NCBI GenBank assembly: GCA_964016885.1
Contig: OZ024743.1
Location: 301,072,001-301,136,000 of the forward strand
DNA from: Eledone cirrhosa
Lineage: Eukaryota
DNA length: 64,000 nucleotides
Reading direction: 5' to 3'
Shown: positions 1 through 58,599 of the stretch, one piece after another
Numbering within the stretch: the stretch's first letter is position 1
Layout: each line of letters begins with the position of its first letter
Made by a program: the position numbers and the translations under genes
The notes under the pieces: model-generated
Seen by the model: only the letters and a program-made list of their open reading frames with translations
What the model was told of the DNA's origin: nothing
Database searches by the model: none

Positions 1-115
1 ACCATAAATAGCATCACATCTTAAATAGATCAACGGTCAAATTGTCCTACTCCACTACCAAAAATGTACAGCAAAATATAAGTGCCTACTATGCATATAA
101 AAGTTTTAAAAAAAC

Positions 116-682
116 ATGAATATACCACCAACACATCAAACTAACCATAATACTAAAATTAACCGCAACAAACCACCATCTGCTTCACATATAACAAGAC
201 GAATAAATTCCACACCAAATTTGACTAACTCCCCTGATATAATATTCACGAATAGTTGTAACTGTAGAAAGAAACCAAATTGCCCATTAAAAGGAAATTG
301 TCTTATTAATAACATATTATATAAATGTAAACATAGCACTAAGGACTCAACTTATTCATATATAGGAGCTACTTCTAACCAATTTAAAGTAAGATTTAAT
401 ACCCACAAACATAGTTTTAAAAATGCCGCATTAGCTAATACAACATCCTTGGCTGAAATAATTAATAATTATAGAAAAAAGAATATCGATTATAACCTGA
501 CCTGCAGTGTGCTCAAAAGGGCCACCCCTTATCAAAATAAGAGATATGAGTGTAGATTATATTCCCAGGAACTTTTTGAAATAATGAAATCTAAGGATAT
601 CCTATTAAATAAGCCACAAGAATTAATTATATCGTGCAGTCATAGAATTAGAAGAACTTTCAAATATTATAAACCTAATTAA
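116..682 (+). pseudogene. PLE Cys-linker plus GIY-YIG endonuclease fragment
   Basis: Motifs CxC-CPL-C, YxC, YIGxT, R-H typical of PLE endonucleases. Confidence 0.8.
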
Positions 683-8961: not shown

Positions 8962-11900
8962 TAGTAATAATAATAAATTTGAAGACTAAAATCCAAAGAG
9001 GGGTGATAAGGATAAATATATATCGAATATATATGAACCGTAGATCAAATATTTATTAAAATAACAGATTCGTCTTCCATTCTTCCTCCGGTTGCAACGT
9101 TTTTTGAAATATTCACGTTTGCGTTCACATATTGACTTTGTTAGTTTCAGAAGATCCCGTTAAGGGTGAAAGCAGCGACTCTTTGCTTAAACTTTAATCT
9201 ATTATTTTAAGAAATATTTGCTCTACGGTTCTTATATATTCGATATATATTTATCCTTATCAGCCCTCTTTGGATTTTAGTCTTTAAATTTATTATTATT
9301 ACTATTTGGCTCCCTCGGTTGAGCACTCTATTGACTTATATTCATCATGCAGAAACAACATCTGAATATTTCTAAAAAGAACATACCTGTACCAAGCAGG
9401 AAAACATACCTAAAACTCCTGTTACAGAAATCAAACGCGTTCATTAAAATGTTGCGTTGGCGTGCCTTTTATTTCGATAATCAGGGAGAAGCAGACAACA
9501 AACAGGATGAATTCGGATTTAAAACCTATAATAACCCTCCGAGTAACCCAGCTTTGCTACCCTTCGAAAATGATGTCTTGGAACTCATAGGAAGTATCAA
9601 ATTTCGGAATAGGACCAATTCCTTCTAGCTGGATCGGAAGAACAGAATTCGGTCTATTAAGGATTCTAATGCCGTGCACGTCCATTCCGACAAAACTGGC
9701 AATCTATATCAAGTGGAGCGCAGTACTTACCATCAACTACTACATGATGCTGTAACTAAGGATTACCGTAAAACTAATCGGAGCGTCATTAATGAAATCA
9801 ACCATGCTCGTTTTAAAATCACCTCTGATCTCAACATCCTGGACCGGACTGAACCTCTGGACCCCTTTTCTCCTTATATACCCTGAAGGATCACAAATCC
9901 AATTTTCCGAACAACTCTTCTATTCGGCTTATTAATTCTACGAAGTCCGAATTAGGTAGACTTACTAAAAGGATTCTTGTTAGAATTATACCTGAAATTA
10001 GAAGTTTGGCCCCTCTTGAACTGTGGAACAATTCTTTCGCGGTGATTGATTGGTTCAACGGCATATGCAACAAGGAACATTGCCGTTTTATGCAACAGTG
10101 GTTAAGGATTTCGAAGTTGATGTCATCCTCAATGCCCGTAAGTCGGTGATTAATTTCGACGACTCTATTTGGATTAAAAAATCCAATAGTACCCCATTGG
10201 ACGTGAGTATGGGCGCCAGAGATTCTGCGGAGGTTACTGATCTTATCAGCCTTTTCCTTCTTTTCTCTATCAAGGAAACAATCCCCAACGTGGGCGGTGG
10301 TTTGTATCGTGATGATGATCTTTTGACCATGACTATGTGCGGCCCACGTGCTTACGACAGGTTCAGAAAAGAACTCACAGCCTTCTTTAAATGCGTCAAT
10401 CTCTCCATACAGGTTGAGGCCAATCTCTCTGTCGTTAATTACCTCGACGTTACCCTCAATTTATCGAATGGCTTTTATTATCCGTATAGAAAGCCGAATG
10501 ATACGTTTAATTACATAAGTAAGTTTTCTAACCATCCTGCCAGCATAACCAAGAACCTGGTAAGAAATGTTTCTTTGAGGCTTTCCTGTCTATCTACTAA
10601 CGAGCATATTTTCAACGACCATCCCACATATTACACTGAAGCTCTTGCTCGGAGTGGATTTGTCGATAAGGTAGCATATACAGAGTACGAGAATAGACCT
10701 AGAAGAAATAGATCCCGACGCATTATATGGTATAACCCATCATATAATATGGCGGTGGCCACACCATTAGCTAAGATATTTTTCTCTCCCTTATTATGGT
10801 GCAGTTTCCTCCTACACATACATATAGTAAAATGTTTAATAGAAATACTATTAAAATGTCTTACTCTACGACTCCTAACCTTGCACATAACATCACAGCT
10901 TCAAATTTAGCTAAACTACTTAGCCGTAGGAACACGTGCAACCCTGTTGTTAGTACTAATTGTAATTGGGGGAATCGGGTTGACTGCCCCCTATCCGGGA
11001 AATACCTCTCTAGTAACATTGTTTACAAAACTAAGGTTGAAACACCCACGTCCCGTAGGGCCTACATAGGGTAAGCCGCCAATAGATTCAAGCCGCGTCT
11101 TTACATGCATACTCTCTAAGAAGGAATATGACGTCACTTTCAGCTTATATCTGGAGTCTAAAAGACAACCAAACCCAATATAAGTTACACTGGGAGATCC
11201 TTGCTAGGGCTAGATCGTATAACGGAAATAAAAGACCATGTGACCTCTACGCCGATGAGGCTCTGGAAATAGTCTACGCCAAAGACCACATCTTAAACAA
11301 AAAATCTGAGGCATTTCGGCTTGTAAACATTAATTGCACAGATCTTTCCTGTATTACAGCACCACTTTATACCCTAACGAATAGTACGAACTATACGCGG
11401 ATATTTTACGTCTTGATGTGGTAGCTAAGTATATGTTATGTTTATACCATTACTTATTAGGTATAGGTAAGTATTATTACCTGTATGTTTTATGCAGGTA
11501 CGTATACTTCCTCGTACGTATATTTGATTTTATGTGTTATGGCGTATATATTATATATTCTTGTACATATGTTTTGGTTATGTGCATACGTGAGTTTTGC
11601 GTCTGTGTGAATATGCGCGTTCGTACGTATGTAGGGTGTGTGTATATGTGTACTTCGTGTTTTGGTTAACGAAGTCTCCGAATATATGTGTATTTACATG
11701 TAGGTATGTGTGTGCGCTTGTTATATACGTATTTATTTATTTATATACATTTATTTAATTATATGTATACACGTACACACACACATATATATGTATTAAT
11801 ATATATATTTTTATATATGTTAATGTGTGTATTTGGTGTATACATTCGTATGCGTGCGGGTACAGGCGTTGAGTGGATTCTGTATGTGCGTGTCGGAGTA

Positions 11901-12470: not shown

Positions 12471-12593
12471 TATATATATATATTATTAGAAATGTTAGCT
12501 ATCGCCGTATTTTGTCTAAAGAAATTAAAGAAATTATTTAGCCTGATGGTGGGGTTAAGAACCCTCGGAGAAATGGAAAAAGATGAGTATTTA

Positions 12594-12662
12594 CGTACAT
12601 GGGAGTCGAACCCACATCTTTGGTTATCCGGACCACTGTGCTACCATTTACACCAACATATC
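12594..12662 (-). pseudogene. tRNA-like sequence (pseudo-tRNA or SINE head) inside a ~105-bp inverted repeat
   Basis: Minus strand TGGTGTAAATGGTAGCAC-A-GTGGTCCGGATAACCA-AAGAT-GTGGGTTCGACTCCCAT gives D arm, anticodon-like arm and T arm. Acceptor stem poor. Confidence 0.6.
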
Positions 12663-15740: not shown

Positions 15741-18520
15741 CTTTCTTTTTATTTGCCACCAGGGCATCAACAGTGGGACAAGTACAAAGGGGGGAGTTTA
15801 CATGCAAAGGCGTCCTCAATATGGAGGAGGCAATAACAAGATATAAAAGTATAAAAATAAAATTAAATATAACAAAATACATTTTGCAACAAAATCCTCA
15901 ATAGGGAGGAGGCGCCTTGGGGGTTCGCACACACCCCCGAAAAGAAGTGTGCAACCCTTCTCCTCAGGAGCACAGAGAGGGGGTGCTCCCTTGATCTTTC
16001 ATATTCCTCACCTATAGTTTGATGTAGAGTGAAGGCCCATTCATACGGGCCATTCTCGCAACTTTCACCCATCTTTCATAAAAACGGCTGGGGTGCAGCA
16101 CCTCTCTCTCCATCCTGATCCTTCTTCCGAAATGATATCGGAAGAAACGGACCAGTTGTTGGCCAGAGAGAAAGGTGCCTGACCTCAGTCCTTTCAGACG
16201 CGTCCTCCATACAACCTCTTTCGCCATGGCTATTACGCACAGAAACACCGCCTCTCCTTCGTTTTTGAAGAGGGGAGGCAGCTTGATGGTTACAATAGAC
16301 TCAGTGGTCAACCGGATCGGTCCTACCCTTGACAGCAGCTGTTCGACATAGCCCCACAGATCGGCAATGCCCGAGCAGTGTACCAATGCGTGTGCGACGG
16401 TTTCCTCGTCGCACACGCATCTGGGACAGATCTTTTTCGAGGGGCCCTACCCGGGCGCCCGTGTCTGTAGAGCCTTTCTTGAACGGGCAGAGCCCTCGGT
16501 AGCATTGCCAGGCCAGGGACCTCTGGAAGTTATCCCTGGGTCCGGGCTGAATGTCCTACCGAACAGGTTGTCCAGTTCGTCTTCCTCCATGCCTAGGGCT
16601 TCTCCGAGGGCGTCGTCGCACCTGCTAACCACTAGCTTTCTATAGAATGACGAGGTGGATTCTCCACTGACAGCCGAGTCCACCTGCCAGAGAGCCGTGA
16701 GCGCCTGGGCACACTCGGTGTGCTAGGCGCCCAGTTTTCTCGGTCTTTGCTTGACCCAGGATTGCAGCTCGGTGAGCGAGACGAATCTGGGAAAGACTCG
16801 CCTCAAAAACGGGGCCCACACCGGTTGACCGGTGAGGAATACCTGGAGGTGCCGTAGCCTTAATGCGTGTTTACGTATCATTAGTCACCGCATCCCCAGC
16901 CCTCCTTTCGAAGGGTGTTGACAGCAGTTGGATCTCCTCACCATAGGAGCCCGCTTCTTCCAAAGGAATTGGCAGTGTGCGCGCCCCATTTTGGCGAGCG
17001 TTTCCCTTGGGCAAGGCACAACGATCAGGCGGTAGTAGATGACGGACGCTATATAAGTGTTCGCCACCTCCGCCCGACCTTTCAGGGACAGTGTGCACTC
17101 GGCCCACTTCTGGGTCAGTGCAAACACCCTGTTCGTTACCTCACCCCAGTTCTTCTCCACCTGGAGGTCTGGTACAAACCAGACCCCGAGCAACTTCACC
17201 GGGACTTCCGTCCAGCGCCCGACGACGACATCGGAGGGCATCGATCTGCCCCTCCACGTGCCGAGTTGCAGACCGAACAACTTGTCCCGGTTCAGCTTAG
17301 CCCCTGTAAACCTTTCGTACTCCTCCAGTAAGGTGCCGATCGCCCCGATTTCCGAGGCCGTCAAAACCATTACTGTTACATCGTCGGCGTAGGCCGCCAC
17401 CGCTTTCCGCAATCCCGGTTCCAACGGGATGCCCTGCAACAACTCCAACTGCCGCAGCAGTGGCTCTAGAGTCATTACATACAGAAGGGAGGAGAGAGGG
17501 CACACTTGTCGGATTGACCGCACGATTTCGAAAGGCTCCGAGAGGTAGCCGTTCACCTTGCCCCTAGAGCAGATGCGGCTGCTGTGCATGGCATTGATCC
17601 AGCCCCTGAAAACGGGTCCGAAGCCTGCCGCCGCTAGCACTGCATCCAGGTAACCATGGTGGACCCTATCGAACGCCTTAGATTGATCCAAGATGATCAA
17701 GGCCCCAACAACGCCGGGTTCGTTCCCAACCCTCTCTATGATGTATCGCATGAGGTGGAGGTTGTCGTGGATGGACCTGGACGGGATAGCACATGTCTGC
17801 GCATCTCCCACCAGGTTGCCCACGTCAAGCGCCAACCTCCTTGCTAGCACCTTGGCCAAAATCTGTAACTCTGTATTTAGCAGAGTTATGGGCCTGAAAT
17901 TATTTATATCGTGCCCCTTGTTCTCGTCCTTCCTCACTAGCGTGACTACGCACTTGGTCACAGCACAGGGAATTCTACCGTTCTGTAGCCAGTTGCAGCA
18001 GACCGCCTCGAGGAGATCGGGGAACTAGTCCGGCATAGCTAGATACAGTTCGTATGGAAGACCATCGTGACCCGGGGATTTGCGTTTGCCGCATTGGCTC
18101 AGCACGTCCTCTATCTCAGCGGCTGAAATCGACTCCTCGCAGGACTTCGCCTCCCTGTCCGAGAGACGCGGCAGTCCGTCGAGGTATGGACCTAAGTCCA
18201 CATCCCCAACCGGCTCCCCGCCCCTTCCGAACAATCCGGAATAGTGCTTTTGAAAAGCCTCGGACATCTGCTTAGGTTCAAGGATCACCCGTCCTTCCTG
18301 GTCTCGCAAAGACTGGATAGTGGATCTGCTCCCTCTTTTGGCTTCTGTCACGCGGGCTCAGCTAACAGCTTTGGTCCGCTCGTTTCCCAGAGCACGTATT
18401 TTGCTTCGAATGATGCAGCCTTCGTGTTTCGCGTCGAAGAACTGGCCCAGGGACGTTCTCGACGCTAGCACTCTGGCCACGTTGCCGCTTCAAATTGCCT
18501 CTTCTACACTATCTACCAGC
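15738..18520 (-). mobile_element. 5'-truncated Tx1/L1-clade LINE (RT plus C-terminal Cys/His motif), disrupted
   Basis: KSPGHDGLPYE, NFRPITLLNTELQILAKVLARRL, LDQSKAFDRV, CPLSSLLY, AYADD, GGLG, C-ETVAHALVHC. AATAAA-type 3' end abuts (GATA)n. Markedly GC-rich. Confidence 0.92.
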
Positions 18521-33549: not shown

Positions 33550-36130
33550 ATTAGAGTTTTATAAGCCATTATGATTTATATTTTCAACAGGCTTGGTTGG
33601 TTACTGTTTTTTCCTGACCTTATGTGAGGCTTGGAATGTAGACAAAGCTTTATGGAGGCAGTTTGAGAATAATTCACTTTTTCTGTTAATTTAGTTTTCA
33701 TAATTATTAATTATCAATAGGGTCTCCATTGTACAAAGCGCGGAGTTACTTGATATACTTGAGTTGCGAAAAGCTCCACTATTACAAAGTTTCGTCCAAA
33801 AGATAGAGTATTTTAATTTTTTGTCTTTTAATGACCATATAAGCTGTGATAAAGACGTCGATGATTTCCTATTAGAATTCGAAAATGAGCATTTATGATT
33901 CGCAAATCTAGCCTTAAATATAGAAGAAGTCGATCCTATGTAGTTGTATGTGTTCTAATCAGTTTTTACGATGCATTTATACACCACATTACTGTCCAAA
34001 CAATTATTTTGCAGAGGGCAATCTGGTTTATTTCTACTATTACATTTTGATTTATTATTATTTATGATAACACTACTATTAAAATTATTATGCTGATTCT
34101 GCTTTAGAATTTTACTGTTTATTTTAGCAATGTTTTGGGCCATGTTTATAGTTGTAGATTAAGATAATATAATAGTGTGTCTATTAAAAATGGAATGGTA
34201 TTTATGTTGACTAGGGAAAGAGCTGTCCAAAGCTTTAAAGGATAAGTTTGCTATTGGTGTTCTTACTGTTACGGAAGGAGGGGGGGGGGGGTGTCAACCA
34301 TATAACTGATTTAGTTCTGGTTCTTTTCCTCGATTTGTTCACCGTATAGGTGTTTGAATTATAATTATTAGAATTTCGTTTATATATGCCGTTATTTTTA
34401 TCAGGATTAAGACTTGGATTATTATTATCTATATATTCTATATTATTCTCTTAACCTGCTCTTTTTATCGCTTCATTGTAGTATGCTGCATTATCATCAA
34501 ATACTACTTTATTGGCAGATATTCTATTAATGCGTTATTGCACACTATATGCAATTGCTTTTTTTTACAGAGTTAGGGTGATTGGAATAATAACTAACAT
34601 AATATAAGTTTTCATTGGGCTTATGAAAAGGGTAATAAAAGCCAGAGTTTAAGTTAAAAGTAACATCAAGGAAATTAACTATTTTTTTACCACTTTCTAC
34701 TTCTAACTTCAGGTCATACATTTTAAAGAATTCTATTATACTTTTCTTTACTCTCTTTAGTTCTATATTGTTGTGTTTGACCACCGTAAATAAAATGTCG
34801 TCCCTATATAAACCACCGGTAATCTCCGGCAGTTTTCTATTTATCATATTTAATATGAAAATCCCCAGAAGATCTGTGATTTGCGCTGAATCACATGCCC
34901 CCATAGTGATATCAAAGTTTCTATTACTATCAGAGCGGGTCCAATATTCGTTGTTGAAGTTAATAATAGTTCTTCTAGCTGTTAGTATGATATCAATTTC
35001 ATCCGTGGTTAGATCAGTATAATTATAAGCGTATGATAGTGCCTTATTTAGTAGGTTGGGCGTTATGGAAGAATAGTAGTTTGTTAAATCCATCTGGATG
35101 AATTTATGGTTTTTCTTATCATCTATATTCTTATACCATTCTATGACTTCGTTTGTATCTTTCCACAAGCTCAATTTAGATCTCAATTTAAGAGCAGGTA
35201 GAATTCTATCGATGATGTTTTTACTGATTACTCCAATATCCGATTTGGATGGAGCAATCAGTCTAATTGGTAGGTCTTCCTCGAAGTTTTTTTTTGTGAT
35301 CTTTGAAGTTAATCCGCGGCTGCCTAGGTATAAGTGGCTCAGTTCTTCCTTCTAATCCTATTTATATGCATCCTCATTAATTTCTGTAAGATCTTTAGCC
35401 GGGGCTTTTTTATGATTTTTCCTAAGTTCCTTTAAAATCAAGTTATTATATTCTTCTTTGTTTATCCCATATAAATTATTTGTTTTGTCCGATTTAACCA
35501 ATATTTTGTTAACTTATTTTTATTTCTGTGATTTTTTTCTTTTAGAGTTTAAAGGAATTGGTGACCTATGAAAGGGTTTTTCCTAATTTTAATTTGTTTA
35601 AGTATACCAAGCGTTCGGTTTCAAAATCCTCCAGAAGTTTGTTCTATGGAGGATTCTTTCTTGATTTAAATAAAGATTCGAAATGACTGCTGTTGGTTTT
35701 TCTTTCAGCATCTTTATTTTCGAAATGAAATGCTCGCCATCTCATTCTTCTTATAAAAGAGTTAGTTTGTTCGATAATTTTCCTCATGTATTCCTCATTT
35801 GAAGGTATTGGTATATCCTTGAGGGATGTCGGGAAGTTTAAGAAATCCATATTTATTGAATATGTAATCTATTGTATAGAAAAGCGCTCAACCAACTGGG
35901 AGCAATACATTTTAAAGAGATAAGCAAGATTCAATGAGTACATCAAAGAATGAGTTTTACAGTAGATTGAAAGCACTCTACAGTTAGATATTTTCAAGAG
36001 TTATTAATATTAAATTCAAATATTAATAAAATAGATGTTCTTGTGATCAATTAAATTGTATTATACATATTTCAGACATACTTGAATCAAGTTCAATAGT
36101 ACGTCCTCATCAGATGAAATGAAATGATAC
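33550..36130 (-). mobile_element. Decayed Neptune-like Penelope element
   Basis: SLKDIPIPS, RRMRWRAFHF, DITMGACDSAQ, GGLYRDD, VNFLDVTFNL, SNHP, KPDCPLQNNCL, YIGST. Degenerate hammerhead at ~36055-36120 upstream. Confidence 0.9.

Positions 36131-42422: not shown

Positions 42423-42427
<5 letters not shown>
42333..42427. repeat. 95-bp near-perfect hairpin
   Basis: TTTTGGATGGCCATTGACTC...CTTTGACA ggttt TGTCAAAG...GAGTCAATGGCCATCCAAAA. Confidence 0.9.
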
Positions 42428-42491
<64 letters not shown>

Positions 42492-42606
42492 CATACATAT
42501 ATATACATTCACATACATACATATATATGTATACACACACATATATATACACATACATATATATACATATACATAGACACACACATACATATATATATAT
42601 TTATAA

Positions 42607-42657
<51 letters not shown>

Positions 42658-42674
42658 TATATATATATATATAT

Positions 42675-45600
42675 ACAATTAAGTTAAAAATGTACATCCA
42701 CATATGTATACTGAAATACTAGTATGCATATGAATACACACACGTGTACATATGTAGATGTACCGAGTTTTTCACTGGACACTTTACTGTGAGTGTCCAG
42801 CTATTCTGTATGTAAACACACAGACAAACCGGTTTTTAGAGTCATACTGGTTTTCGAGGAAACACCTTTCCTCTATTCTCCAGAAAGCCAGACAAGGAAT
42901 ATTGGACTAGTTTCGATGTTGTTACATCTCATCAGCAACATTTACCTATCTTCCGGCCTTTCTAGAGAATCGTAAAAGCACATATCGTTATATGCTTTTT
43001 CTATGAAAATTAGTAGTGGGCAGACTAATTTGCATAGAGCGTGAGTACATACCGGTTCGGCGGAGACGATAAAAACAAATAACGAAACGAAATTAAATTT
43101 CGTTTCGTTTGTAACTCACTTTTGTATGACTGACGCTTAAACAATTAAGTTAAAAATGTACATCCACATATGTATACTGAAATACTAGTATGCATATGAA
43201 TACACACACGTGTACATATGTAGATGTACCGAGTTTTTCACTGGACACTTTACTGTGAGTGTCCAGCTATTCTGTATGTAAACACACAGACAAACCGGTT
43301 TTTAGAGTCATACTGGTTTTCGAGGAAACACCTTTCCTCTATTCTCCAGAAAGCCAGACAAGGAATATTGGACTAGTTTCGATGTTGTTACATCTCATCA
43401 GCAACATTTACCTATCTTCCGGCCTTTCTAGAGAATCGTAAAAGCACATATCGTTATATGCTTTTTCTATGAAAATTAGTAGTGGGCAGACTAATTTGCA
43501 TAGAGCGTGAGTACATACCGGTTCAGCGGAGACGATAAAAACAAATAACGAAACGAAATTAAATTTCGTTTCGTTTGTAACTCACTTTTGTATGACTGAC
43601 GCTTAAACAATTAAGTTAAAAATGTACATCCACATATGTATACTGAAATACTAGTATGCATATGAATACACACACGTGTACATATGTAGATGTACCGAGT
43701 TTTTCACTGGACACTTTACTGTGAGTGTCCAGCTATTCTGTATGTAAACACACAGACAAACCGGTTTTTAGAGTCATACTGGTTTTCGAGGAAACACCTT
43801 TCCTCTATTCTCCAGAAAGCCAGACAAGGAATATTGGACTAGTTTCGATGTTGTTACATCTCATCAGCAACATTTACCTATCTTCCGGCCTTTCTAGAGA
43901 ATCGTAAAAGCACATATCGTTATATGCTTTTTCTATGAAAATTAGTAGTGGGCAGACTAATTTGCATAGAGCGTGAGTACATACCGGTTCAGCGGAGACG
44001 ATAAAAACAAATAACGAAACGAAATTAAATTTCGTTTCGTTTGTAACTCACTTTTGTATGACTGACGCTTAAACAATTAAGTTAAAAATGTACATCCACA
44101 TATGTATACTGAAATACTAGTATGCATATGAATACACACACGTGTACATATGTAGATGTACCGAGTTTTTCACTGGACACTTTACTGTGAGTGTCCAGCT
44201 ATTCTGTATGTAAACACACAGACAAACCGGTTTTTAGAGTCATACTGGTTTTCGAGGAAACACCTTTCCTCTATTCTCCAGAAAGCCAGACAAGGAATAT
44301 TGGACTAGTTTCGATGTTGTTACATCTCATCAGCAACATTTACCTATCTTCCGGCCTTTCTAGAGAATCGTAAAAGCACATATCGTTATATGCTTTTTCT
44401 ATGAAAATTAGTAGTGGGCAGACTAATTTGCATAGAGCGTGAGTACATACCGGTTCAGCGGAGACGATAAAAACAAATAACGAAACGAAATTAAATTTCG
44501 TTTCGTTTGTAACTCACTTTTGTATGACTGACGCTTAAACAATTAAGTTAAAAATGTACATCCACATTTCTGGAGAATAGAGGAAAGGTGTTTCCTCGAA
44601 AACCAGTATGACTCTAAAAACCGGTTTGTCTGTGTGTTTACATACAGAATAGCTGGACACTCACAGTAAAGTGTCCAGTGAAAAACTCGGTACATCTACA
44701 TATGTACACGTGTGTGTATTCATATGCATACTAGTATTTCAGTATACATATGTGGATGTACATTTTTAACTTAATTGTTTAAGCGTCAGTCATACAAAAG
44801 TGAGTTACAAACGAAACGAAATTTAATTTCGTTTCGTTATTTGTTTTTATCGTCTCCGCTGAACCGGTATGTACTCACGCTCTATGCAAATTAGTCTGCC
44901 CACTACTAATTTTCATAGAAAAAGCATATAACGATATGTGCTTTTACGATTCTCTAGAAAGGCCGGAAGATAGGTAAATGTTGCTGATGAGATGTAACAA
45001 CATCGAAACTAGTCCAATATTCCTTGTCTGGCTTTCTGGAGAATAGAGGAAAGGTGTTTCCTCGAAAACCAGTATGACTCTAAAAACCGGTTTGTCTGTG
45101 TGTTTACATACAGAATAGCTGGACACTCACAGTAAAGTGTCCAGTGAAAAACTCGGTACATCTACATATGTACACGTGTGTGTATTCATATGCATACTAG
45201 TATTTCAGTATACATATGTGGATGTACATTTTTAACTTAATTGTTTAAGCGTCAGTCATACAAAAGTGAGTTACAAACGAAACGAAATTTAATTTCGTTT
45301 CGTTATTTGTTTTTATCGTCTCCGCTGAACCGGTATGTACTCACGCTCTATGCAAATTAGTCTGCCCACTACTAATTTTCATAGAAAAAGCATATAACGA
45401 TATGTGCTTTTACGATTCTCTAGAAAGGCCGGAAGATAGGTAAATGTTGCTGATGAGATGTAACAACATCGAAACTAGTCCAATATTCCTTGTCTGGCTT
45501 TCTGGAGAATAGAGGAAAGGTGTTTCCTCGAAAACCAGTATGACTCTAAAAACCGGTTTGTCTGTGTGTTTACATACAGAATAGCTGGACACTCACAGTA

Positions 45601-48600
45601 AAGTGTCCAGTGAAAAACTCGGTACATCTACATATGTACACGTGTGTGTATTCATATGCATACTAGTATTTCAGTATACATATGTGGATGTACATTTTTA
45701 ACTTAATTGTTTAAGCGTCAGTCATACAAAAGTGAGTTACAAACGAAACGAAATTTAATTTCGTTTCGTTATTTGTTTTTATCGTCTCCGCTGAACCGGT
45801 ATGTACTCACGCTCTATGCAAATTAGTCTGCCCACTACTAATTTTCATAGAAAAAGCATATAACGATATGTGCTTTTACGATTCTCTAGAAAGGCCGGAA
45901 GATAGGTAAATGTTGCTGATGAGATGTAACAACATCGAAACTAGTCCAATATTCCTTGTCTGGCTTTCTGGAGAATAGAGGAAAGGTGTTTCCTCGAAAA
46001 CCAGTATGACTCTAAAAACCGGTTTGTCTGTGTGTTTACATACAGAATAGCTGGACACTCACAGTAAAGTGTCCAGTGAAAAACTCGGTACATCTACATA
46101 TGTACACGTGTGTGTATTCATATGCATACTAGTATTTCAGTATACATATGTGGATGTACATTTTTAACTTAATTGTTTAAGCGTCAGTCATACAAAAGTG
46201 AGTTACAAACGAAACGAAATTTAATTTCGTTTCGTTATTTGTTTTTATCGTCTCCGCTGAACCGGTATGTACTCACGCTCTATGCAAATTAGTCTGCCCA
46301 CTACTAATTTTCATAGAAAAAGCATATAACGATATGTGCTTTTACGATTCTCTAGAAAGGCCGGAAGATAGGTAAATGTTGCTGATGAGATGTAACAACA
46401 TCGAAACTAGTCCAATATTCCTTGTCTGGCTTTCTGGAGAATAGAGGAAAGGTGTTTCCTCGAAAACCAGTATGACTCTAAAAACCGGTTTGTCTGTGTG
46501 TTTACATACAGAATAGCTGGACACTCACAGTAAAGTGTCCAGTGAAAAACTCGGTACATCTACATATGTACACGTGTGTGTATTCATATGCATACTAGTA
46601 TTTCAGTATACATATGTGGATGTACATTTTTAACTTAATTGTTTAAGCGTCAGTCATACAAAAGTGAGTTACAAACGAAACGAAATTTAATTTCGTTTCG
46701 TTATTTGTTTTTATCGTCTCCGCTGAACCGGTATGTACTCACGCTCTATGCAAATTAGTCTGCCCACTACTAATTTTCATAGAAAAAGCATATAACGATA
46801 TGTGCTTTTACGATTCTCTAGAAAGGCCGGAAGATAGGTAAATGTTGCTGATGAGATGTAACAACATCGAAACTAGTCCAATATTCCTTGTCTGGCTTTC
46901 TGGAGAATAGAGGAAAGGTGTTTCCTCGAAAACCAGTATGACTCTAAAAACCGGTTTGTCTGTGTGTTTACATACAGAATAGCTGGACACTCACAGTAAA
47001 GTGTCCAGTGAAAAACTCGGTACATCTACATATGTACACGTGTGTGTATTCATATGCATACTAGTATTTCAGTATACATATGTGGATGTACATTTTTAAC
47101 TTAATTGTTTAAGCGTCAGTCATACAAAAGTGAGTTACAAACGAAACGAAATTTAATTTCGTTTCGTTATTTGTTTTTATCGTCTCCGCTGAACCGGTAT
47201 GTACTCACGCTCTATGCAAATTAGTCTGCCCACTACTAATTTTCATAGAAAAAGCATATAACGATATGTGCTTTTACGATTCTCTAGAAAGGCCGGAAGA
47301 TAGGTAAATGTTGCTGATGAGATGTAACAACATCGAAACTAGTCCAATATTCCTTGTCTGGCTTTCTGGAGAATAGAGGAAAGGTGTTTCCTCGAAAACC
47401 AGTATGACTCTAAAAACCGGTTTGTCTGTGTGTTTACATACAGAATAGCTGGACACTCACAGTAAAGTGTCCAGTGAAAAACTCGGTACATCTACATATG
47501 TACACGTGTGTGTATTCATATGCATACTAGTATTTCAGTATACATATGTGGATGTACATTTTTAACTTAATTGTTTAAGCGTCAGTCATACAAAAGTGAG
47601 TTACAAACGAAACGAAATTTAATTTCGTTTCGTTATTTGTTTTTATCGTCTCCGCCGAACCGGTATGTACTCACGCTCTATGCAAATTAGTCTGCCCACT
47701 ACTAATTTTCATAGAAAAAGCATATAACGATATGTGCTTTTACGATTCTCTAGAAAGGCCGGAAGATAGGTAAATGTTGCTGATGAGATGTAACAACATC
47801 GAAACTAGTCCAATATTCCTTGTCTGGCTTTCTGGAGAATAGAGGAAAGGTGTTTCCTCGAAAACCAGTATGACTCTAAAAACCGGTTTGTCTGTGTGTT
47901 TACATACAGAATAGCTGGACACTCACAGTAAAGTGTCCAGTGAAAAACTCGGTACATCTACATATGTACACGTGTGTGTATTCATATGCATACTAGTATT
48001 TCAGTATACATATGTGGATGTACATTTTTAACTTAATTGTTTAAGCGTCAGTCATACAAAAGTGAGTTACAAACGAAACGGAATTTAATTTCGTTTCGTT
48101 ATTTGTTTTTATCGTCTCCGCTGAACCGGTATGTACTCACGCTCTATGCAAATTAGTCTGCCCACTACTAATTTTCATAGAAAAAGCATATAACGATATG
48201 TGCTTTTACGATTCTCTAGAAAGGCCGGAAGATAGGTAAATGTTGCTGATGAGATGTAACAACATCGAAACTAGTCCAATATTCCTTGTCTGGCTTTCTG
48301 GAGAATAGAGGAAAGGTGTTTCCTCGAAAACCAGTATGACTCTAAAAACCGGTTTGTCTGTGTGTTTACATACAGAATAGCTGGACACTCACAGTAAAGT
48401 GTCCAGTGAAAAACTCGGTACATCTACATATGTACACGTGTGTGTATTCATATGCATACTAGTATTTCAGTATACATATGTGGATGTACATTTTTAACTT
48501 AATTGTTTAAGCGTCAGTCATACAAAAGTGAGTTACAAACGAAACGAAATTTAATTTCGTTTCGTTATTTGTTTTTATCGTCTCCGCTGAACCGGTATGT

Positions 48601-50908
48601 ACTCACGCTCTATGCAAATTAGTCTGCCCACTACTAATTTTCATAGAAAAAGCATATAACGATATGTGCTTTTACGATTCTCTAGAAAGGCCGGAAGATA
48701 GGTAAATGTTGCTGATGAGATGTAACAACATCGAAACTAGTCCAATATTCCTTGTCTGGCCTTCTGGAGAATAGAGGAAAGGTGTTTCCTCGAAAACCAG
48801 TATGACTCTAAAAACCGGTTTGTCTGTGTGTTTACATACAGAATAGCTGGACACTCACAGTAAAGTGTCCAGTGAAAAACTCGGTACATCTACATATGTA
48901 CACGTGTGTGTATTCATATGCATACTAGTATTTCAGTATACATATGTGGATGTACATTTTTAACTTAATTGTTTAAGCGTCAGTCATACAAAAGTGAGTT
49001 ACAAACGAAACGAAATTTAATTTCGTTTCGTTATTTGTTTTTATCGTCTCCGCCGAACCGGTATGTACTCACGCTCTATGCAAATTAGTCTGCCCACTAC
49101 TAATTTTCATAGAAAAAGCATATAACGATATGTGCTTTTACGATTCTCTAGAAAGGCCGGAAGATAGGTAAATGTTGCTGATGAGATGTAACAACATCGA
49201 AACTAGTCCAATATTCCTTGTCTGGCTTTCTGGAGAATAGAGGAAAGGTGTTTCCTCGAAAACCAGTATGACTCTAAAAACCGGTTTGTCTGTGTGTTTA
49301 TATACAGAATAGCTGGACACTCACAGTAAAGTGTCCAGTGAAAAACTCGGTACATCTACATATGTACACGTGTGTGTATTCATATGCATACTAGTATTTC
49401 AGTATACATATGTGGATGTACATTTTTAACTTAATTGTTTAAGCGTCAGTCATACAAAAGTGAGTTACAAACGAAACGGAATTTAATTTCGTTTCGTTAT
49501 TTGTTTTTATCGTCTCCGCTGAACCGGTATGTACTCACGCTCTATGCAAATTAGTCTGCCCACTACTAATTTTCATAGAAAAAGCATATAACGATATGTG
49601 CTTTTACGATTCTCTAGAAAGGCCGGAAGATAGGTAAATGTTGCTGATGAGATGTAACAACATCGAAACTAGTCCAATATTCCTTGTCTGGCTTTCTGGA
49701 GAATAGAGGAAAGGTGTTTCCTCGAAAACCAGTATGACTCTAAAAACCGGTTTGTCTGTGTGTTTACATACAGAATAGCTGGACACTCACAGTAAAGTGT
49801 CCAGTGAAAAACTCGGTACATCTACATATGTACACGTGTGTGTATTCATATGCATACTAGTATTTCAGTATACATATGTGGATGTACATTTTTAACTTAA
49901 TTGTTTAAGCGTCAGTCATACAAAAGTGAGTTACAAACGAAACGAAATTTAATTTCGTTTCGTTATTTGTTTTTATCGTCTCCGCCGAACCGGTATGTAC
50001 TCACGCTCTATGCAAATTAGTCTGCCCACTACTAATTTTCATAGAAAAAGCATATAACGATATGTGCTTTTACGATTCTCTAGAAAGGCCGGAAGATAGG
50101 TAAATGTTGCTGATGAGATGTAACAACATCGAAACTAGTCCAATATTCCTTGTCTGGCTTTCTGGAGAATAGAGGAAAGGTGTTTCCTCGAAAACCAGTA
50201 TGACTCTAAAAACCGGTTTGTCTGTGTGTTTACATACAGAATAGCTGGACACTCACAGTAAAGTGTCCAGTGAAAAACTCGGTACATCTACATATGTACA
50301 CGTGTGTGTATTCATATGCATACTAGTATTTCAGTATACATATGTGGATGTACATTTTTAACTTAATTGTTTAAGCGTCAGTCATACAAAAGTGAGTTAC
50401 AAACGAAACGGAATTTAATTTCGTTTCGTTATTTGTTTTTATCGTCTCCGCTGAACCGGTATGTACTCACGCTCTATGCAAATTAGTCTGCCCACTACTA
50501 ATTTTCATAGAAAAAGCATATAACGATATGTGCTTTTACGATTCTCTAGAAAGGCCGGAAGATAGGTAAATGTTGCTGATGAGATGTAACAACATCGAAA
50601 CTAGTCCAATATTCCTTGTCTGGCTTTCTGGAGAATAGAGGAAAGGTGTTTCCTCGAAAACCAGTATGACTCTAAAAACCGGTTTGTCTGTGTGTTTACA
50701 TACAGAATAGCTGGACACTCACAGTAAAGTGTCCAGTGAAAAACTCGGTACATCTACATATGTACACGTGTGTGTATTCATATGCATACTAGTATTTCAG
50801 TATACATATGTGGATGTACATTTTTAACTTAATTGTTTAAGCGTCAGTCATACAAAAGTGAGTTACAAACGAAACGAAATTTAATTTCGTTTCGTTATTT
50901 GTTTTTAT
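42675..50908. repeat. 466-bp tandem array carrying one hammerhead ribozyme per unit (putative non-LTR retrozyme); left arm ~4.06 units, right arm ~13.6 units in opposite orientation
   Basis: Units start ACAATTAAG at 42675, 43141, 43607, 44073 and 44539 (period 466). Orientation flips at ~44567 and the array runs to 50908. ORF track repeats every 466 nt (4 on +, 13 on -). Both ends abut (TA)n. Confidence 0.97.
44954..45039 (+). ncRNA. Type I hammerhead ribozyme (first of 13 + strand copies at 466-nt spacing; 4 more on - strand in the left arm)
   Basis: AATGTTG-CTGATGA(44984-90)-GATGT aaca ACATC-GAAAC-TA-GTC-CAATATT: canonical core, 5-bp stem II, palindromic ACTAGT stem III, stem I extended by CTAGAAAGGCCGGA/TCTGGCTTTCTGG. 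Predicted cleavage after C45014. Confidence 0.93.
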
Positions 50909-50930
50909 ATATATATATATATATATATAT

Positions 50931-52373
<1,443 letters not shown>

Positions 52374-53119: not shown

Positions 53120-55014
53120 CAATACATAAGCTGTTTTATAAATAATTTTGTCATACCTTATAATAATGCAACTTCCATTTAAATAGTTGATTTGGTAGTG
53201 AAATTGTTATGACAGTTATATAGAAAGAAAAACGAAGATGAAAAGAAGAAGATGAAGAGATGTATGTAAATAAAAAAAGAAGAAGATGAAGAGATGTATG
53301 TAAAGAAAAACAACAGAGCGAGATAGAGAGAGAAGGAGATATGGGAGAGAGAAATACATTGAGGAAGTGAAAAAATATAGTAGGCAGCTTTTGGACAGAT
53401 GATCATCGTATATGTGAGAGGTTAAGGAGGGAAGGGATACAGTTAAACTAGCCGACACATAAATCACGTCGAGTGTAGAGGAGAAAAAGAAAGAAAGATG
53501 ATATATTTAAAATATATTAAAAATATATTATGTCTCATCCATTTGAATTATCAATTTTTATGAATTAGGTATTATAATGTAAATATCAGTATTCATGAAT
53601 GAGACACATATCCATAATGTGTGAAAAAATGACCCCATGCTTAGTTTAAAAATTCTTAGGTCTATAAGCAAAATCTGAGATAAAACTTCAAACATAAGTA
53701 TATATGCATTCTCATGAAAAAAGAAAAAAGAGAAAAGAGAAGGTTATCTCAAATTCAAGTTGATAAATATAGACACACATGTGAACCTACGTGATATGCT
53801 CCAAAGATTCTTATATTTCATGAAAATCTTCATTGCGTTACAAAAGATTCCACCCTACATATATTTACATACATATATACATATATATAGACATAACATA
53901 TATAAGATATACATTAACATTTAAAGTAACATTCCTGCCTCAATTGCATGATTATCGATCAAGCATAGAATAGACAACAGATATCAATATTAAAAATTAA
54001 AAACGCCAAGAATATCTTCGTCACTCCACAGAGTATCTAGGGACGCAAGAGAACATAGTATGCCACGCATATCAGTCACATAAAATCAGAATCAAAAGCA
54101 AACAAAACCAAAATTGTTCACCAAGCCTTATTTAGCAGAAATCATTCAAAACTTATTCTACAAATGCTCTTATATTTATTATAGAAGTTTATCCAGCTTA
54201 AAAATTTATTCAAAAGATTGGGAACATCGCCAATTTTAGGGTAGTTTATTTAATCTCATTAATTATATATTCATGCAGAAAGGTTTTAAAAAAAATTGAA
54301 GGAATCGAAATATTTATCGCCAAGTTTCATAAATAGTTAAATATCTTAAGTAAATATACTACATTTTATACTACATTTTAAATTTATATTTATATTTAAA
54401 AGTTGAGTTCAATCTATGTCTGCAGCAGCTGAATAAATTGGTTCGTAAATTAAGGGAATTTTTAGATTTTAGTATAAAGAATAGCTCCTCCGCGCAGAGG
54501 TCACATGTCTCAGAAGAGGAATTAAAAGGAATCCCTTTTGAGACTATATTCCAAACCATCGAATATCCAACTTTATCATGTTTAAGTTGCCAGAGTAAGC
54601 CTGACAGCGATGTTGAAGATTTTTTATTTGGATCCGTGAAAGAATTTTTGTGATTATTATAGCGAAGTTTAAATTCTGTCGAGGTGGAACCAACATAATT
54701 AAAAGAATTTAAATCAGTTTTAACATTACAGTTGTATATTATATTTTTAACTAAGCAATTGTTATTTAGCGGACATTTAGATCTATCTCTACAGTTACAG
54801 TTTTTTACTTGAATATTGTTTAGGCTATTTTCGGTATTTTGGCTAGGTTTTAGATTCCTATTATTTATTCTATTAATATTTTGTGCTAAATTTTTTGTGG
54901 ACGAGTACGTTAATTTTATAGTATGTCTATTGAAAATTGAGTGATACTTATGTGTTCTAGGGAAGCGTTTGTCAAGAGCATTAAAAAATAGTTTAGCGAT
55001 GTGGGTTTTAATGT

Positions 55015-56073
55015 TTAGTGAGAAGGGGGGGGGGGGGCAAACCATATTATATTTCTAGTTCTATTTCTTTTCTGGTTTTTGGAATTATTGTAGTGCTTTC
55101 TATTATAGTTGTTAAAGTTGTTACTGTAATTAAAATTGTTGTTATTTTGGTTAGTTTGTCTATTATCGATGTACATAATGTTATCACTATATCCTGCTCT
55201 AGCTAACGCTTCATTATAATACTGGGCTTTTTCGTCAAAAATATTTTTATTGGAAGAGATTCTAGAGATACGTTTTTGAACAGAGTTCACTATAGTATTT
55301 TTGACAAATCTGGGGTGATTGGAGCTAAAATTGACATAATTCAAGTTTTCATTTAACTTGTGAAATGGATAGTGAAGACATGTGTTGAGATTTAATGTTA
55401 CGTCTAGGAAATTGACTATTCTATGGTTATTCTCAATTTCTATTTTTAGATTAAAGTAATTAAAAAATTGTATAATTTGTTTTCTTTTCTTATTTAGTTC
55501 AGAGTTATTATTTTCAATAAGTAAAAGCATGTCATCTCTATATAAACCTCCGGTAACACCGGGTATTTTCCTATGCAGCGAATTAATTATAAATAGGCCC
55601 ACAAGGTCCGTTACCTGAGCTGAGTCTGATGATCCCATAGTAATGTCGAAATTATTATCTCTATCTGCCCTAGTCCATAGTTGGTTATTAAATTCTATCA
55701 AAGTTTTCCTTGCCGATAATATAATGTGCATTTCATTGCTAGTTAGGTCTGTATGCTTGAATGCGTAATTTAGTGCCTTATTTAGTAGATTAGGGGTAAT
55801 GGATGAATAGTAGTTAGCAATATCTAGTTGAATAAATTTATTATTATTGTTATATTTAATTTCATTAAACCACTCAATGACCTCCCCAGTTCCCTTCCAC
55901 AAGGTCAAGCCAGGTAAACAATTCAAGTCCTTAATTTGCTGTATCACTCTGTCTAGAATGTTCTTGCTAAGTTTACCAAGGTCAGATTTTGATGGTGCAA
56001 TCAACCTGACTGGCAAGTCATTTTCAAAATTTCTCTTGTGATCTTTCATATTGATCTTGGGTTTCCTGGGCAC
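55015..56073 (-). pseudogene. PLE reverse transcriptase domain
   Basis: LDIANYYSSI, ITMGSSDS and YRDD catalytic motifs. Frameshift at a poly-G run near 55025. Confidence 0.88.
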
Positions 56074-56673
56074 GAAAGGTTATGTTTTGTTCTCAATTTC
56101 CAACTCATGCATTATACGTTCAGCCTTATCTGCTACCTTGTACTTTTTCCTTAGTTCTTTCAGTATGAGGCCATTATACATGTCTTTATCCACTCCATAG
56201 AGGTTGTCGGTTTTGTCCGATTTCACCAAGATCTTCTCTGTTCTCTCTCAGCTCGCAATGTTATCCTTAATGCTTTTCAGATATTCCTGGCCATTGAAGT
56301 TTCTCTTAAATCTGACTCCTTGTATGATAGAAATTATATCGTTTTCAAAATCATTCAAAAGTTTGTTGGGGGGTGGATTTTTTTTAGATTTGAAGACTCT
56401 GTCTAGGTCTGAGACATTTTCATTTACATTAGATTTAGATTTATCAAAGTGGAATGCACGCCACCTGATTCTCCTTATAAAGGAGTCTGATTTATCTATT
56501 AGTTGTTTAATAAAGTCCTTGTTTCTAGGTAGAGGTATGTCTTTTAGAGAAGAAGAGATCTTAAAGAATTCCATTTTTTCAGTTATAATATAAAGCACTC
56601 AACGGTATCCCAGAAATATATATAACGAAATAAATATGGTTTTATAAATATAGTTTCCATTTGTTTAATATCG

Positions 56674-57274: not shown

Positions 57275-58470
57275 AATATATATACACATATATGTGTACA
57301 TAGACACATACATACACATCAATATTCACTCGTACAAAAATATACATACTTGCAAAGAGAAAAGCGTGCTAATTGTAGTTATGGCAAAAAGAAGGTAAAG
57401 TAACATTGTAGTAGTGAAATGAGAGAAACTAGGATCTAGGATCAAATGATTGCAGCAGCTGAGAAGGAGTAAGATTGTTGGTAGATGAGGTATTTACAGA
57501 CAATTGTGTGGTATAGACTTGTGAAGGAAATAGTATACTTAATGAATATATTTCTGTGGGTAGTAGGTATCCTAATTTAAAGCTATGTTATGTTGGTTCG
57601 ATTCACGGAGGTTTGAATCTTATGAATTTAGTGGCTATTCTATGTCTGCAGAAGATAGATCTTTCTAACTTATTATTAAGTAGCCTTTTAACATTTCTAA
57701 GGATATACAATAGCTCAAGATCACACAGCCCGCAATAGGACATACCTGTACTATAGGTTTTAGCAGCCGACATCTTCGACCAGTTGATAGTGTAGCTAGC
57801 GTTGCTGTCCTTCAATTCCCATATTTTTCTGGCGAGAGTGGTGGAACCCAAAATTGCTCGATTTTTCATTGAGTGCCTGTGCACATACCATCTTTTCTTA
57901 AAAGAACCCGCGGTGGATCCTATGTAATTCCAGGTGGAGTTACCCGAGATGACAGTGCACATGTACACCAGGCTCGAATCGAGACATCTATTCGCCAATG
58001 GGCACCTATCTGGGAGGTGACAGTTGCAGTTTGAGGCGCTATTTTGTGCAGCTTTTACATTCCTATTTAGTACCCTGTTATAAGTGGGTTGTGATATATG
58101 CCCATGGGGTTTTGCTGCTGCGCGTTTGTATGCGCTTGTGGTTGTGATGTTGTGATGAGTTTGTGCTTATGTATAGGTGCAATTGATTTACTTGAGATAT
58201 TTCTGTGGTTGATCTTACGTATGTGTGATTCTATGTTAGCTGCTGTTGAGAAAGAGAGTTTAATAGTAGATCTATTGAGTATTTTGTGATATATATGCGA
58301 GATAGGGAAGTGTTTATCTATTAGTTTAAAGAATGTAGAGGGCAGTCTAGTTTTTATAGAGGAGTTGAATATTGGGTTGAACCATAGGTATTTTCTTTGT
58401 CTGTTTCTTCTATTATTTCTAGGGTTTACGTTATTAGTGTTTTGGCCGTTTACTCTAGGTGTTACAGCAT
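56705..58470 (-). mobile_element. 5'-truncated PLE (endonuclease plus 3' UTR)
   Basis: WFNP motif near 58380, CHLPDRCPLANRCL, VYMC, NYIGSTAGSFKKRW, CGLC. Degenerate long-stem-II hammerhead at ~56755-56865. Confidence 0.82.
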
Positions 58471-58599
58471 ACCCGCAGCATCACTATGAAAACGCCTTGT
58501 TGAGTCAAACCAAGCCAAGCGTTAATATCATCCACTACCTGGAATACCATAACTGGACTTCACCTAAATGGACTGCATTTAACTATTATTTGTTAATCC

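What the first reader, a model, noticed from the sequence alone, without database searches (positions are those of the whole stretch)
45022..45420. The monomer outside the ribozyme is almost entirely hairpins (viroid-like branched fold)
Seen, in order: GAGGAAA/TTTCCTC; AAACCAG/CCGGTTT; CTGGACACT/AGTGTCCAG; GTACATCTACATATGTACA/TATACATATGTGGATGTAC; AACGAAACGAAATT/AATTTCGTTTCGTT; GCGTCAGTCATA/TATGTACTCACGC; CTATGCAAATTAGT/ACTAATTTTCATAG; AAAAGCA/TGCTTTT. Inference: the unit is selected as a compact, stable structured RNA, as in retrozyme circRNAs. It could also be a dsRNA or small-RNA source.
Basis: partly seen in the sequence, partly recalled or inferred. Interest (0 to 1): 0.7.

Follow-up and report, generated by a model that had tools for sequence, protein, structure and literature searches.

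The report
Hairpin-rich retrozyme with Penelope insertion footprint
The hairpins belong to a 466-base self-cutting-RNA repeat with about 9,500 copies in this animal genome; its fold is kept in a distant sister family, and its insertions end at two fixed internal points, one per side, which is the footprint of Penelope-type jumping genes and likely shows how such RNA circles get copied into DNA.

Summary
The 466-bp unit folds far better than shuffles (z about -8 to -10). Six of the eight listed stems are well supported and two are mis-paired. 'Almost entirely hairpins' overstates it: 68% of bases pair, against 59% in shuffles. The unit carries a type I hammerhead, has no long ORF and has about 9,480 copies, so it is an animal non-LTR retrozyme. 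A second family at 63% identity keeps the same helices, with 13 both-side changes outside the ribozyme, so the fold is selected. New here: 194 of 203 arm 3' ends lie at two internal sites (A, B) 70 nt apart, not at the ribozyme cut. Of 77 readable tail-out two-armed insertions, 71 have one A and one B end; none is A/A or B/B. An autonomous Penelope-like element in the genome shows the same pattern. 5' ends ignore the cut site, and locus-private variants occur in both arms. Best reading: a Penelope-type RT primes both broken (TA)n ends on a structured, probably circular, RNA and copies it round repeatedly. Expression, cleavage, circularity and the partner RT were not shown.

The parts
42672..44567 (-). 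Left arm, 4.1 units; 3' end at site A (unit position 231-233) against (TA)n
44567..50908 (+). Right arm, 13.6 units; 3' end at site B (unit position 302) against (TA)n; joined 5'-to-5' with the left arm at 44567
45015..45480 (+). One 466-nt unit, predicted cut to predicted cut (putative circRNA monomer); unit position 1 = 45015
44949..45044 (+). Type I hammerhead: CUGAUGA 44984-44990, 5-bp stem II, GAAAC, palindromic ACUAGU helix III/loop, predicted cut after GUC at 45014, long extended stem I
   Evidence: stem II A-U/U-A variants 4,120 and 5,239 copies; further both-side changes in family 2
45046..45063 (+). Hairpin GAGGAAA/TTTCCTC
   Evidence: P 0.98; 4 pairs with both-side changes (helix 12)
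45072..45261 (+). Long-range helix 45072-45079:45254-45261 closing the domain that holds site A
   Evidence: 2 both-side changes (helix 2)
45095..45114 (+).
45118..45145 (+). Hairpin CTGGACACT/AGTGTCCAG
   Evidence: P 0.97; 3 both-side changes within family 1, 2 in the two-family alignment
45156..45227 (+). Long AT-rich hairpin just upstream of site A
   Evidence: P 0.89; kept in family 2
45236..45249 (+). Small hairpin holding site A (arm 3' ends mostly at 45242 and 45247); inferred RT start site 1
   Evidence: same place in family 2
45248..45316 (+). 'Tail' between sites A and B, nearly invariant across subfamilies; site B (45316) follows an unpaired U-rich linker; inferred RT start site 2
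45276..45304 (+). 13-bp hairpin AACGAAACGAAAT/ATTTCGTTTCGTT inside the tail
   Evidence: P 0.88; shorter homologue in family 2
45347..45385 (+). Hairpin whose 5' arm holds ATGCAAAT (45350-45357), identical in family 2; possible snRNA-type promoter octamer (motif recalled, untested)
45386..45411 (+). Hairpin AAAAGCA/TGCTTTT
   Evidence: P 0.97; shorter hairpin of other sequence at the same place in family 2
42427..42674 (.). Left (TA)n target flank
50909..50930 (.). Right (TA)n target flank

Best explanation
The hairpins are the conserved fold of an animal non-LTR retrozyme unit whose insertions end at two fixed internal sites, one on each side; the unit is predicted to be cut out by its hammerhead and circularised, and is likely copied into (TA)n by a Penelope-like reverse transcriptase that primes one broken DNA end at site A and the other at site B and would run round the circle. 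Shown: the repeat, the ribozyme motif, fold conservation, copy number, the A/B end rule, target preference, 12-16 bp duplications. Inferred: (1) arrays are transcribed, perhaps from an internal snRNA-type promoter; (2) neighbouring hammerheads cut as dimers through the palindromic helix III and a host ligase closes the monomer; (3) a PLE RT-endonuclease, probably a dimer, binds the structured A-tail-B region, cuts both strands of (TA)n and starts one cDNA at A and one at B; (4) both cDNAs pass the ligation junction repeatedly, stop at random and are joined head-to-head, giving the tail-out two-armed array. The fold would serve stability of the circle and display of the two start sites.
For: Fold. 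Covariation: family 1, 41 units, 97.3% of cells paired, 7 of 149 pairs with both-side changes, 5 outside the ribozyme; families 1+2, 24 of 148 pairs, 13 outside the ribozyme, against 2-7 for slid controls. An independent fold of family-2 unit L239 gives the same helix order: 108 of its 139 pairs lie within 4 columns of a family-1 pair at 63% identity. Stem variants seen in 2 or more units of a locus keep pairing in 47 of 95 cases, one-off variants in 10 of 70, p=2.5e-6. Ends: 194 of 203 at A or B; 71 of 77 readable two-armed insertions are A+B, none A/A or B/B; contigs of public runs show (TA)n loose ends at the same two places. Two internal RT start sites bounding the genomic tail were shown in vitro for a PLE (PMC11167929). 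An autonomous PLE here shows one short and one tailed end in 4 of 4 two-armed copies with both ends visible. 5' ends are uniform round the unit (155 ends, KS p=0.75; 2 within 5 nt of the cut, one a query-edge artefact). 22 locus-private variants in 17 loci occur in both arms, several in every unit.
Against: Nothing here shows transcription, cleavage or a circle. All predicted helices are local, so the fold fits an uncut linear multimer as well as a circle; the PLE studied in vitro used unprocessed RNA and did not need its hammerhead (PMC11167929). The count of pairs with both-side changes is reached by 68 and 102 of 500 shuffles, and two clades give few independent events. Only 1 of 3 family-2 units folded gave the full one-to-one topology as its minimum-energy structure. 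The reverse strand also folds well; the strand test is weak (G-U:A-C 27:16 inherited, 9:17 one-off, p=0.028; inherited alone p=0.13). One-off variants are transversion-rich and may include assembly errors, which inflates that contrast. 150 locus-private variants are in one arm only, and period-2 to -4 patterns in long arms may reflect later tandem duplication. Neither of two PLE families examined shares sequence with the unit.
Confidence: 0.7

Rival explanations
1. Same element and same PLE machinery, but the template is an uncut linear multimeric transcript; long arrays grow afterwards by unequal exchange. The hammerhead would be incidental to mobility.
For: Weak 1-2 bp helix III (PMC4209133). 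A PLE used unprocessed RNA in vitro (PMC11167929). Only 1 of 9 frog retrozyme dimers cleaved in vitro (10.64898/2026.07.22.740005). Periodic and patchy variant patterns in long arms. Uniform 5' ends fit this too.
Against: Hammerhead core and stems are kept with compensatory changes across both families. Some loci have private variants fixed in every unit of both arms, e.g. L113 three A>G in 10 of 10 passes, window 432G in 17 of 17. Circles are documented for coral, mussel and axolotl retrozymes (PMC7229834).
Confidence: 0.2
2. The unit is only the pseudo-LTR or tail end of an autonomous Penelope-like element, and the arrays are its usual truncated tandem-plus-inverted copies.
For: Same tail, inversion, target and hammerhead type as PLEs (PMC8557442). 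Frog retrozymes resemble pLTRs (10.64898/2026.07.22.740005). Earlier finding e1-7908855 ended this way in another genome.
Against: Period is fixed at 464-470 nt in all 78 fetched stretches with a whole unit, with up to 31 consecutive hammerheads in one arm. No ORF of 120 aa or more overlaps the window array. The 5' flanks of 35 unpaired arms share no common upstream sequence apart from two chance repeat matches. All 61 genome hits of the A-site 17-mer with foreign upstream bases read as junctions or variants of the unit (by eye; 30 checked).
Confidence: 0.04
3. An autonomously replicating viroid-like RNA (RNA-to-RNA rolling circle) that has been repeatedly endogenised.
For: Size, branched fold and ribozyme resemble viroid-like RNAs; the minus strand also folds. 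Many closely related subfamilies coexist.
Against: Hammerhead on one strand only. All arms are primed in one polarity at A or B. Thousands of DNA copies can account for RNA supply.
Confidence: 0.04
4. A DNA-level satellite or fold-back element, or a host-selected dsRNA/small-RNA source; the hairpins reflect DNA palindromes.
For: Both strands fold. Tail-out arms form kilobase inverted repeats that could give long dsRNA. One low-depth contig shows 7 T>C changes in the long hairpin, a hint of antisense editing.
Against: Dispersed insertions with RT-type 5' truncation, fixed 3' ends and target duplications. G-U-tolerant and compensatory changes and a conserved ribozyme point to RNA. Longest perfect stem is 13 bp.
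Confidence: 0.02

Closest known systems
Animal non-LTR retrozymes (coral, mussel, axolotl/newt satellite 2; PMC7229834, PMC7761336; vertebrate survey 10.64898/2026.07.22.740005)
   Same: Tandem non-coding units with one type I hammerhead each, GC 36%, highly self-paired predicted circle leaving the hammerhead free to fold, no LTR/PBS/PPT seen, long target duplications, thousands of copies, PLEs in the same genome.
   Different: Unit of 466 nt is above the 170-400 nt of the tested circles but inside the 51-972 bp survey range. The texts I read do not describe tail-out two-armed insertions, fixed internal 3' ends or covariation of the non-ribozyme fold. Circular RNA is not shown here.
Endonuclease-positive Penelope-like elements (PAc of anole, PMC11167929; Neptune/Naiad/Hydra, PMC8557442)
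   Same: Inverted 5'-truncated arm, optional tail at one end, two internal RT start sites, AT-rich or (TA)n target, hammerhead about 230-310 nt upstream of the ends (218-281 nt in the PLE family here).
   Different: No ORF; tail is 70 nt (51 nt in family 2) against 30-40 nt; many identical units per arm; the one-tail rule is strict here (no A/A or B/B) where the paper says 'often'.
Non-autonomous Chlamys elements such as MRC1 (PMC8557442, passage)
   Same: Non-coding PLE passengers with multicopy head-to-tail insertions.
   Different: They resemble their autonomous partner at the 3' end and mostly lack hammerheads; no partner with shared sequence was found here.
Avsunviroidae viroids (recalled)
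   Same: Size, branched fold, hammerhead.
   Different: Ribozyme in one polarity only; DNA copies with a retrotransposition footprint.

Membership tests
Animal non-LTR retrozyme | Type I hammerhead in every repeat unit | tested here: met
   Core in all 17 complete sites of the window array; 9,480 exact core patterns genome-wide. Rfam gathering scan did not call it.
Animal non-LTR retrozyme | Head-to-tail tandem units of a few hundred bp, dispersed | tested here: met
   Period 464-470 nt; many chromosomes.
Animal non-LTR retrozyme | Non-coding, GC under 50%, no LTR/PBS/PPT | tested here: met
   No ORF of 120 aa or more; GC 0.36; ends are (TA)n junctions. PBS/PPT judged by eye only.
Animal non-LTR retrozyme | Highly self-paired predicted circle | tested here: met
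Animal non-LTR retrozyme | Target duplications longer than 4 bp when present | tested here: met
   12-16 bp in 5 informative loci of 54 examined; the rest lie in TA repeats.
Animal non-LTR retrozyme | Self-cleavage of transcripts | not testable with these tools
   Needs in vitro assay.
Animal non-LTR retrozyme | Expressed as linear and circular RNA | not testable with these tools
   Only contigs of runs of unrecorded kind were available.
PLE-mobilised element | Two internal 3' ends bounding a tail; inverted 5' arm; AT-rich target | tested here: met
Autonomous PLE or its pLTR | RT and GIY-YIG ORF linked to the repeat | tested here: not met
   two PLE families share no sequence with the unit. 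The search was not exhaustive.
Avsunviroidae-type viroid | Hammerheads in both polarities, no DNA stage (recalled) | tested here: not met
   One polarity; thousands of DNA copies.

The most novel reading that the evidence does not exclude
A circular ribozyme RNA carries a conserved two-site docking structure; one Penelope-type dimer primes both ends of a (TA)n break in a single concerted step, always one end at each site, and two reverse transcriptases chase each other round the same circle. The arrays would be the first genomic record of twin rolling-circle reverse transcription, and would define a protein-free RNA module that loads a PLE in trans.
Probability: 0.4. Interest if true: 0.78.

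Novelty: new member of a known kind. Interest (0 to 1): 0.55.

Why it matters
How animal retrozymes move is open: a 2020 review says the repeats show no conserved motif pointing to their partner (PMC7761336), and a 2026 preprint links them to PLEs by distribution and pLTR similarity while leaving the mechanism unresolved. Here the insertions themselves carry the PLE footprint, map the two RT start sites to the base on a covariation-supported fold, and show a strict one-site-per-end rule that constrains models of PLE integration (concerted, asymmetric double priming). It gives a short, defined RNA substrate for testing rolling-circle target-primed reverse transcription.

Tried and rejected
Rfam gathering scan: no hammerhead call, only a weak tRNA hit at 12591-12660. 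Sequencing runs: no RNA holder listed; the six holders are contigs of unrecorded kind and say nothing on expression. Partner search: the PLE family of window 54-56 kb (30 loci) and a second PLE family (20 + 8 loci) share no sequence with the unit beyond AT-rich noise (local scores 32-36, shuffle maxima 36-40); a pattern for the A-site 17-mer in foreign context gave only unit junctions; loose ends in contigs revealed no partner. Pfam named only a LINE-type RT among 9 window ORFs and nothing in the 1,217-aa PLE ORF; the PLE label rests on the atlas and recalled motifs. The two arms that seemed to start exactly at the cut (L116, L206) were query-edge artefacts. The listed stems 2 and 6 were rejected. 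An excess of A>G in stems (25 of 90 A) over loops (6 of 56; p=0.02) may be A-to-I editing of the template or selection for G-U pairs; not resolved. Papers PMC308520 and PMC5785218 were not held. Earlier-findings look-ups by place and sequence were empty.

Full report
Setting. The finding lies in a tandem array of a 466-bp unit at 42672-50908, made of a minus-strand arm of 4.1 units and a plus-strand arm of 13.6 units joined at 44567 and flanked by (TA)n. The genome is a 3.0-Gb animal assembly. Each unit holds CTGATGAG-ATGT-AACA-ACAT-CGAAAC-TA-GTC followed by a long complementary stem, on one strand only: a type I hammerhead with a minimal helix III and palindromic loop, the form that cleaves as a dimer in tandem repeats (PMC4209133, passages). 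I number the unit from the predicted cut (position 1 = 45015). No ORF of 120 aa or more overlaps the array.

Observation. The region folds at z -8.2 on the plus strand and -7.1 on the minus strand; the circular unit at z -10.4 and -7.6. Among 88 of 94 eligible background tiles only the centre of a neighbouring inverted repeat was more extreme. Six listed stems have pairing probabilities 0.88-0.98; stems 2 and 6 have 0.16 and 0.17. 68% of positions 31-400 pair, against 59% in shuffles. The hairpins are real, but 'almost entirely' is too strong.

Family. An exact hammerhead-core pattern occurs 9,480 times, 4,120 with an A-U and 5,239 with a compensated U-A pair in stem II. I fetched three sets of loci: 39 closest to the window unit including the window, 51 taken in order along contig C1 from the two pattern lists, and 28 from a junction pattern. 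Overlapping pieces were merged and duplicates dropped (L069, L070, L152, L203, L209). Sets 1 and 2 are biased to loci with a whole unit or a hammerhead. Units are 89-100% identical to the window's.

Selection on the fold. In 41 units, 97.3% of cells pair; 7 of 149 pairs change on both sides, 5 of them outside the ribozyme; 68 of 500 shuffles reach 7 pairs, none reaches the 41 cells. Stem variants present in two or more units of a locus keep pairing in 47 of 95 cases, one-off variants in 10 of 70 (p=2.5e-6), though one-offs may include errors. A distant family turned up beside a PLE (1,234 first-look candidates): 411-431 nt units, 63% identical (264 of 418 aligned positions), z -7.6 to -9.5 in 3 of 9 units folded. 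Unit L239 folds independently into the same series of helices; 108 of its 139 confident pairs lie within 4 columns of a family-1 pair, 58 coincide and 12 of these differ at both bases. L237 and L240 gave partly different minimum-energy folds. On a sequence-only alignment of 8+8 units, 24 of 148 pairs change on both sides, 13 outside the ribozyme, against 2-7 in slid controls; 102 of 500 shuffles reach 24 pairs, none the 150 cells. Two clades give few independent events, but whole hairpins are replaced by different sequence at the same place. Evidence that the plus strand is the selected one is modest (p=0.028); the ribozyme's strand is the stronger argument.

Insertion footprint. Arm 3' ends are not at the ribozyme cut. 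194 of 203 lie at A (unit 224-236, mostly 228 and 233) or B (296-306, mostly 302), followed by (TA)n. Of 79 tail-out two-armed insertions, 77 had both outer ends inside the fetched DNA: 71 are A+B, none A/A or B/B, and 6 have one end elsewhere. One head-out pair in L186 has two A ends and was not counted as such an insertion. Several 'single' arms have a few bases of the opposite end type at their 5' side (by eye). Contigs from public runs show (TA)n loose ends at 45247 and 45316 (these may be the source sample). Five informative loci of 54 have 12-16 bp target duplications. Family 2 ends at the homologous places, 51 nt apart; of about 15 two-armed loci 6 are clean A+B, one reads A/A (an alignment running through TA repeats) and the rest have an eroded end (by eye). 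[quoted passage not shown] A young autonomous family here (ORFs to 1,273 aa; RT, GIY-YIG and HTH_animal look-alikes at 0.97) ends at two points about 50-60 nt apart in (TA)n, one per side in 4 of 4 two-armed copies with both ends visible among 8 fetched. It shares no sequence with the unit, so the partner is unidentified.

Template. 5' ends are spread evenly round the unit (155 ends of sets 1-2, KS p=0.75) with no pile-up at the cut, and arms cross the cut up to 31 times. A cut linear monomer is therefore not the template; it is a circle or an uncut multimer. 22 variants found in only one sampled locus occur in both arms (17 loci), some in every unit; 150 occur in one arm only. Fixed private variants fit a monomer circle. 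Period-2 to -4 patterns (L124, L128, L134, L050) fit oligomeric circles or later duplication. I put the circle at roughly 3 to 1 over the linear multimer, leaning on circles shown for other animal retrozymes (PMC7229834, parts 2-4 of 6).

Structure and function. Site A sits in a small hairpin after the long AT-rich stem, inside a domain closed by helix 58-65:240-247. Site B follows an unpaired U-rich linker after the 13-bp hairpin. Positions 220-302 are nearly invariant across subfamilies. I infer that this region is the RT docking element. ATGCAAAT is identical in both families while its pairing strand differs in part. Newt satellite 2 has an snRNA-type promoter (PMC2220036, passage); that this uses an octamer is recalled, and the role here is untested.

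Comparison and novelty. It meets every sequence-level feature of animal non-LTR retrozymes; cleavage and circular RNA could not be tested. PLE mobilisation was proposed (PMC7229834; PMC7761336, passages) and supported by distribution and pLTR similarity (10.64898/2026.07.22.740005, parts 1-3 of 5 read; 'tail' and 'initiation' do not occur in it; its supplements are closed and could bear on this). Six searches found no paper describing fixed A/B ends or two-armed insertions in retrozymes; the library lacks most subscription papers, and I read no supplements. Verdict: a new member of a known kind, with an unusually clear mechanistic footprint. Interest 0.55.

Noticed in passing
window 50931-52245: A second tail-out two-armed insertion in (TA)n right beside the array: 99% inverted arms meeting at 51626/51627, with about 80 extra bases at the left end only, the same one-sided tail; no ORF of 120 aa.
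   Followed up: partly
L222:2497-3045; L236-L265: Family 2 retrozyme (about 425 nt, 63% identical), older, with the same fold and homologous A/B ends.
   Followed up: yes
window 18717(-)/18789(+), 19661(-)/19692(+), 22793(-), 39950(-), 27192(-): Other hammerhead-like cores, two as inverted pairs between TA runs; 27192 belongs to the pLTR of the PLE at 27.2-29.2 kb.
   Followed up: no
window 110-682, 10050-10910, 34545-35351, 54371-56079, 57603-58480: Fragments of another PLE-like clade (RT plus C-terminal endonuclease by recalled motifs); 67,917 first-look candidates and young 750-aa ORFs in the genome. Pfam has no hit for them.
   Followed up: partly
L266-L273: In the autonomous PLE family the A/B ends lie at the very start of the ORF (MTLPKYNN|ICFD...), as in the anole element.
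   Followed up: partly
L113/L114; run X5 at 45195-45211: Three clustered A>G changes fixed in all units of one locus, and seven T>C changes in one low-depth contig within the long hairpin: possible A-to-I editing of sense and antisense RNA.
   Followed up: partly
G000:C1:5738327-5752443: A 31-hammerhead arm with a roughly three-unit variant rhythm; useful for separating oligomeric templates from later duplication.
   Followed up: partly
runs X4 and X6: Organisms B and C each hold one 495-496 nt contig, i.e. one collapsed circular or tandem unit about 97% identical, at low depth; origin unknown.
   Followed up: no
window 12591-12660 (-): Weak tRNA-like hit (31.8 bits), possibly a SINE head.
   Followed up: no
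window 16012-18024 (-): LINE-type RT fragment, Pfam RVT_1 E 3e-21.
   Followed up: no
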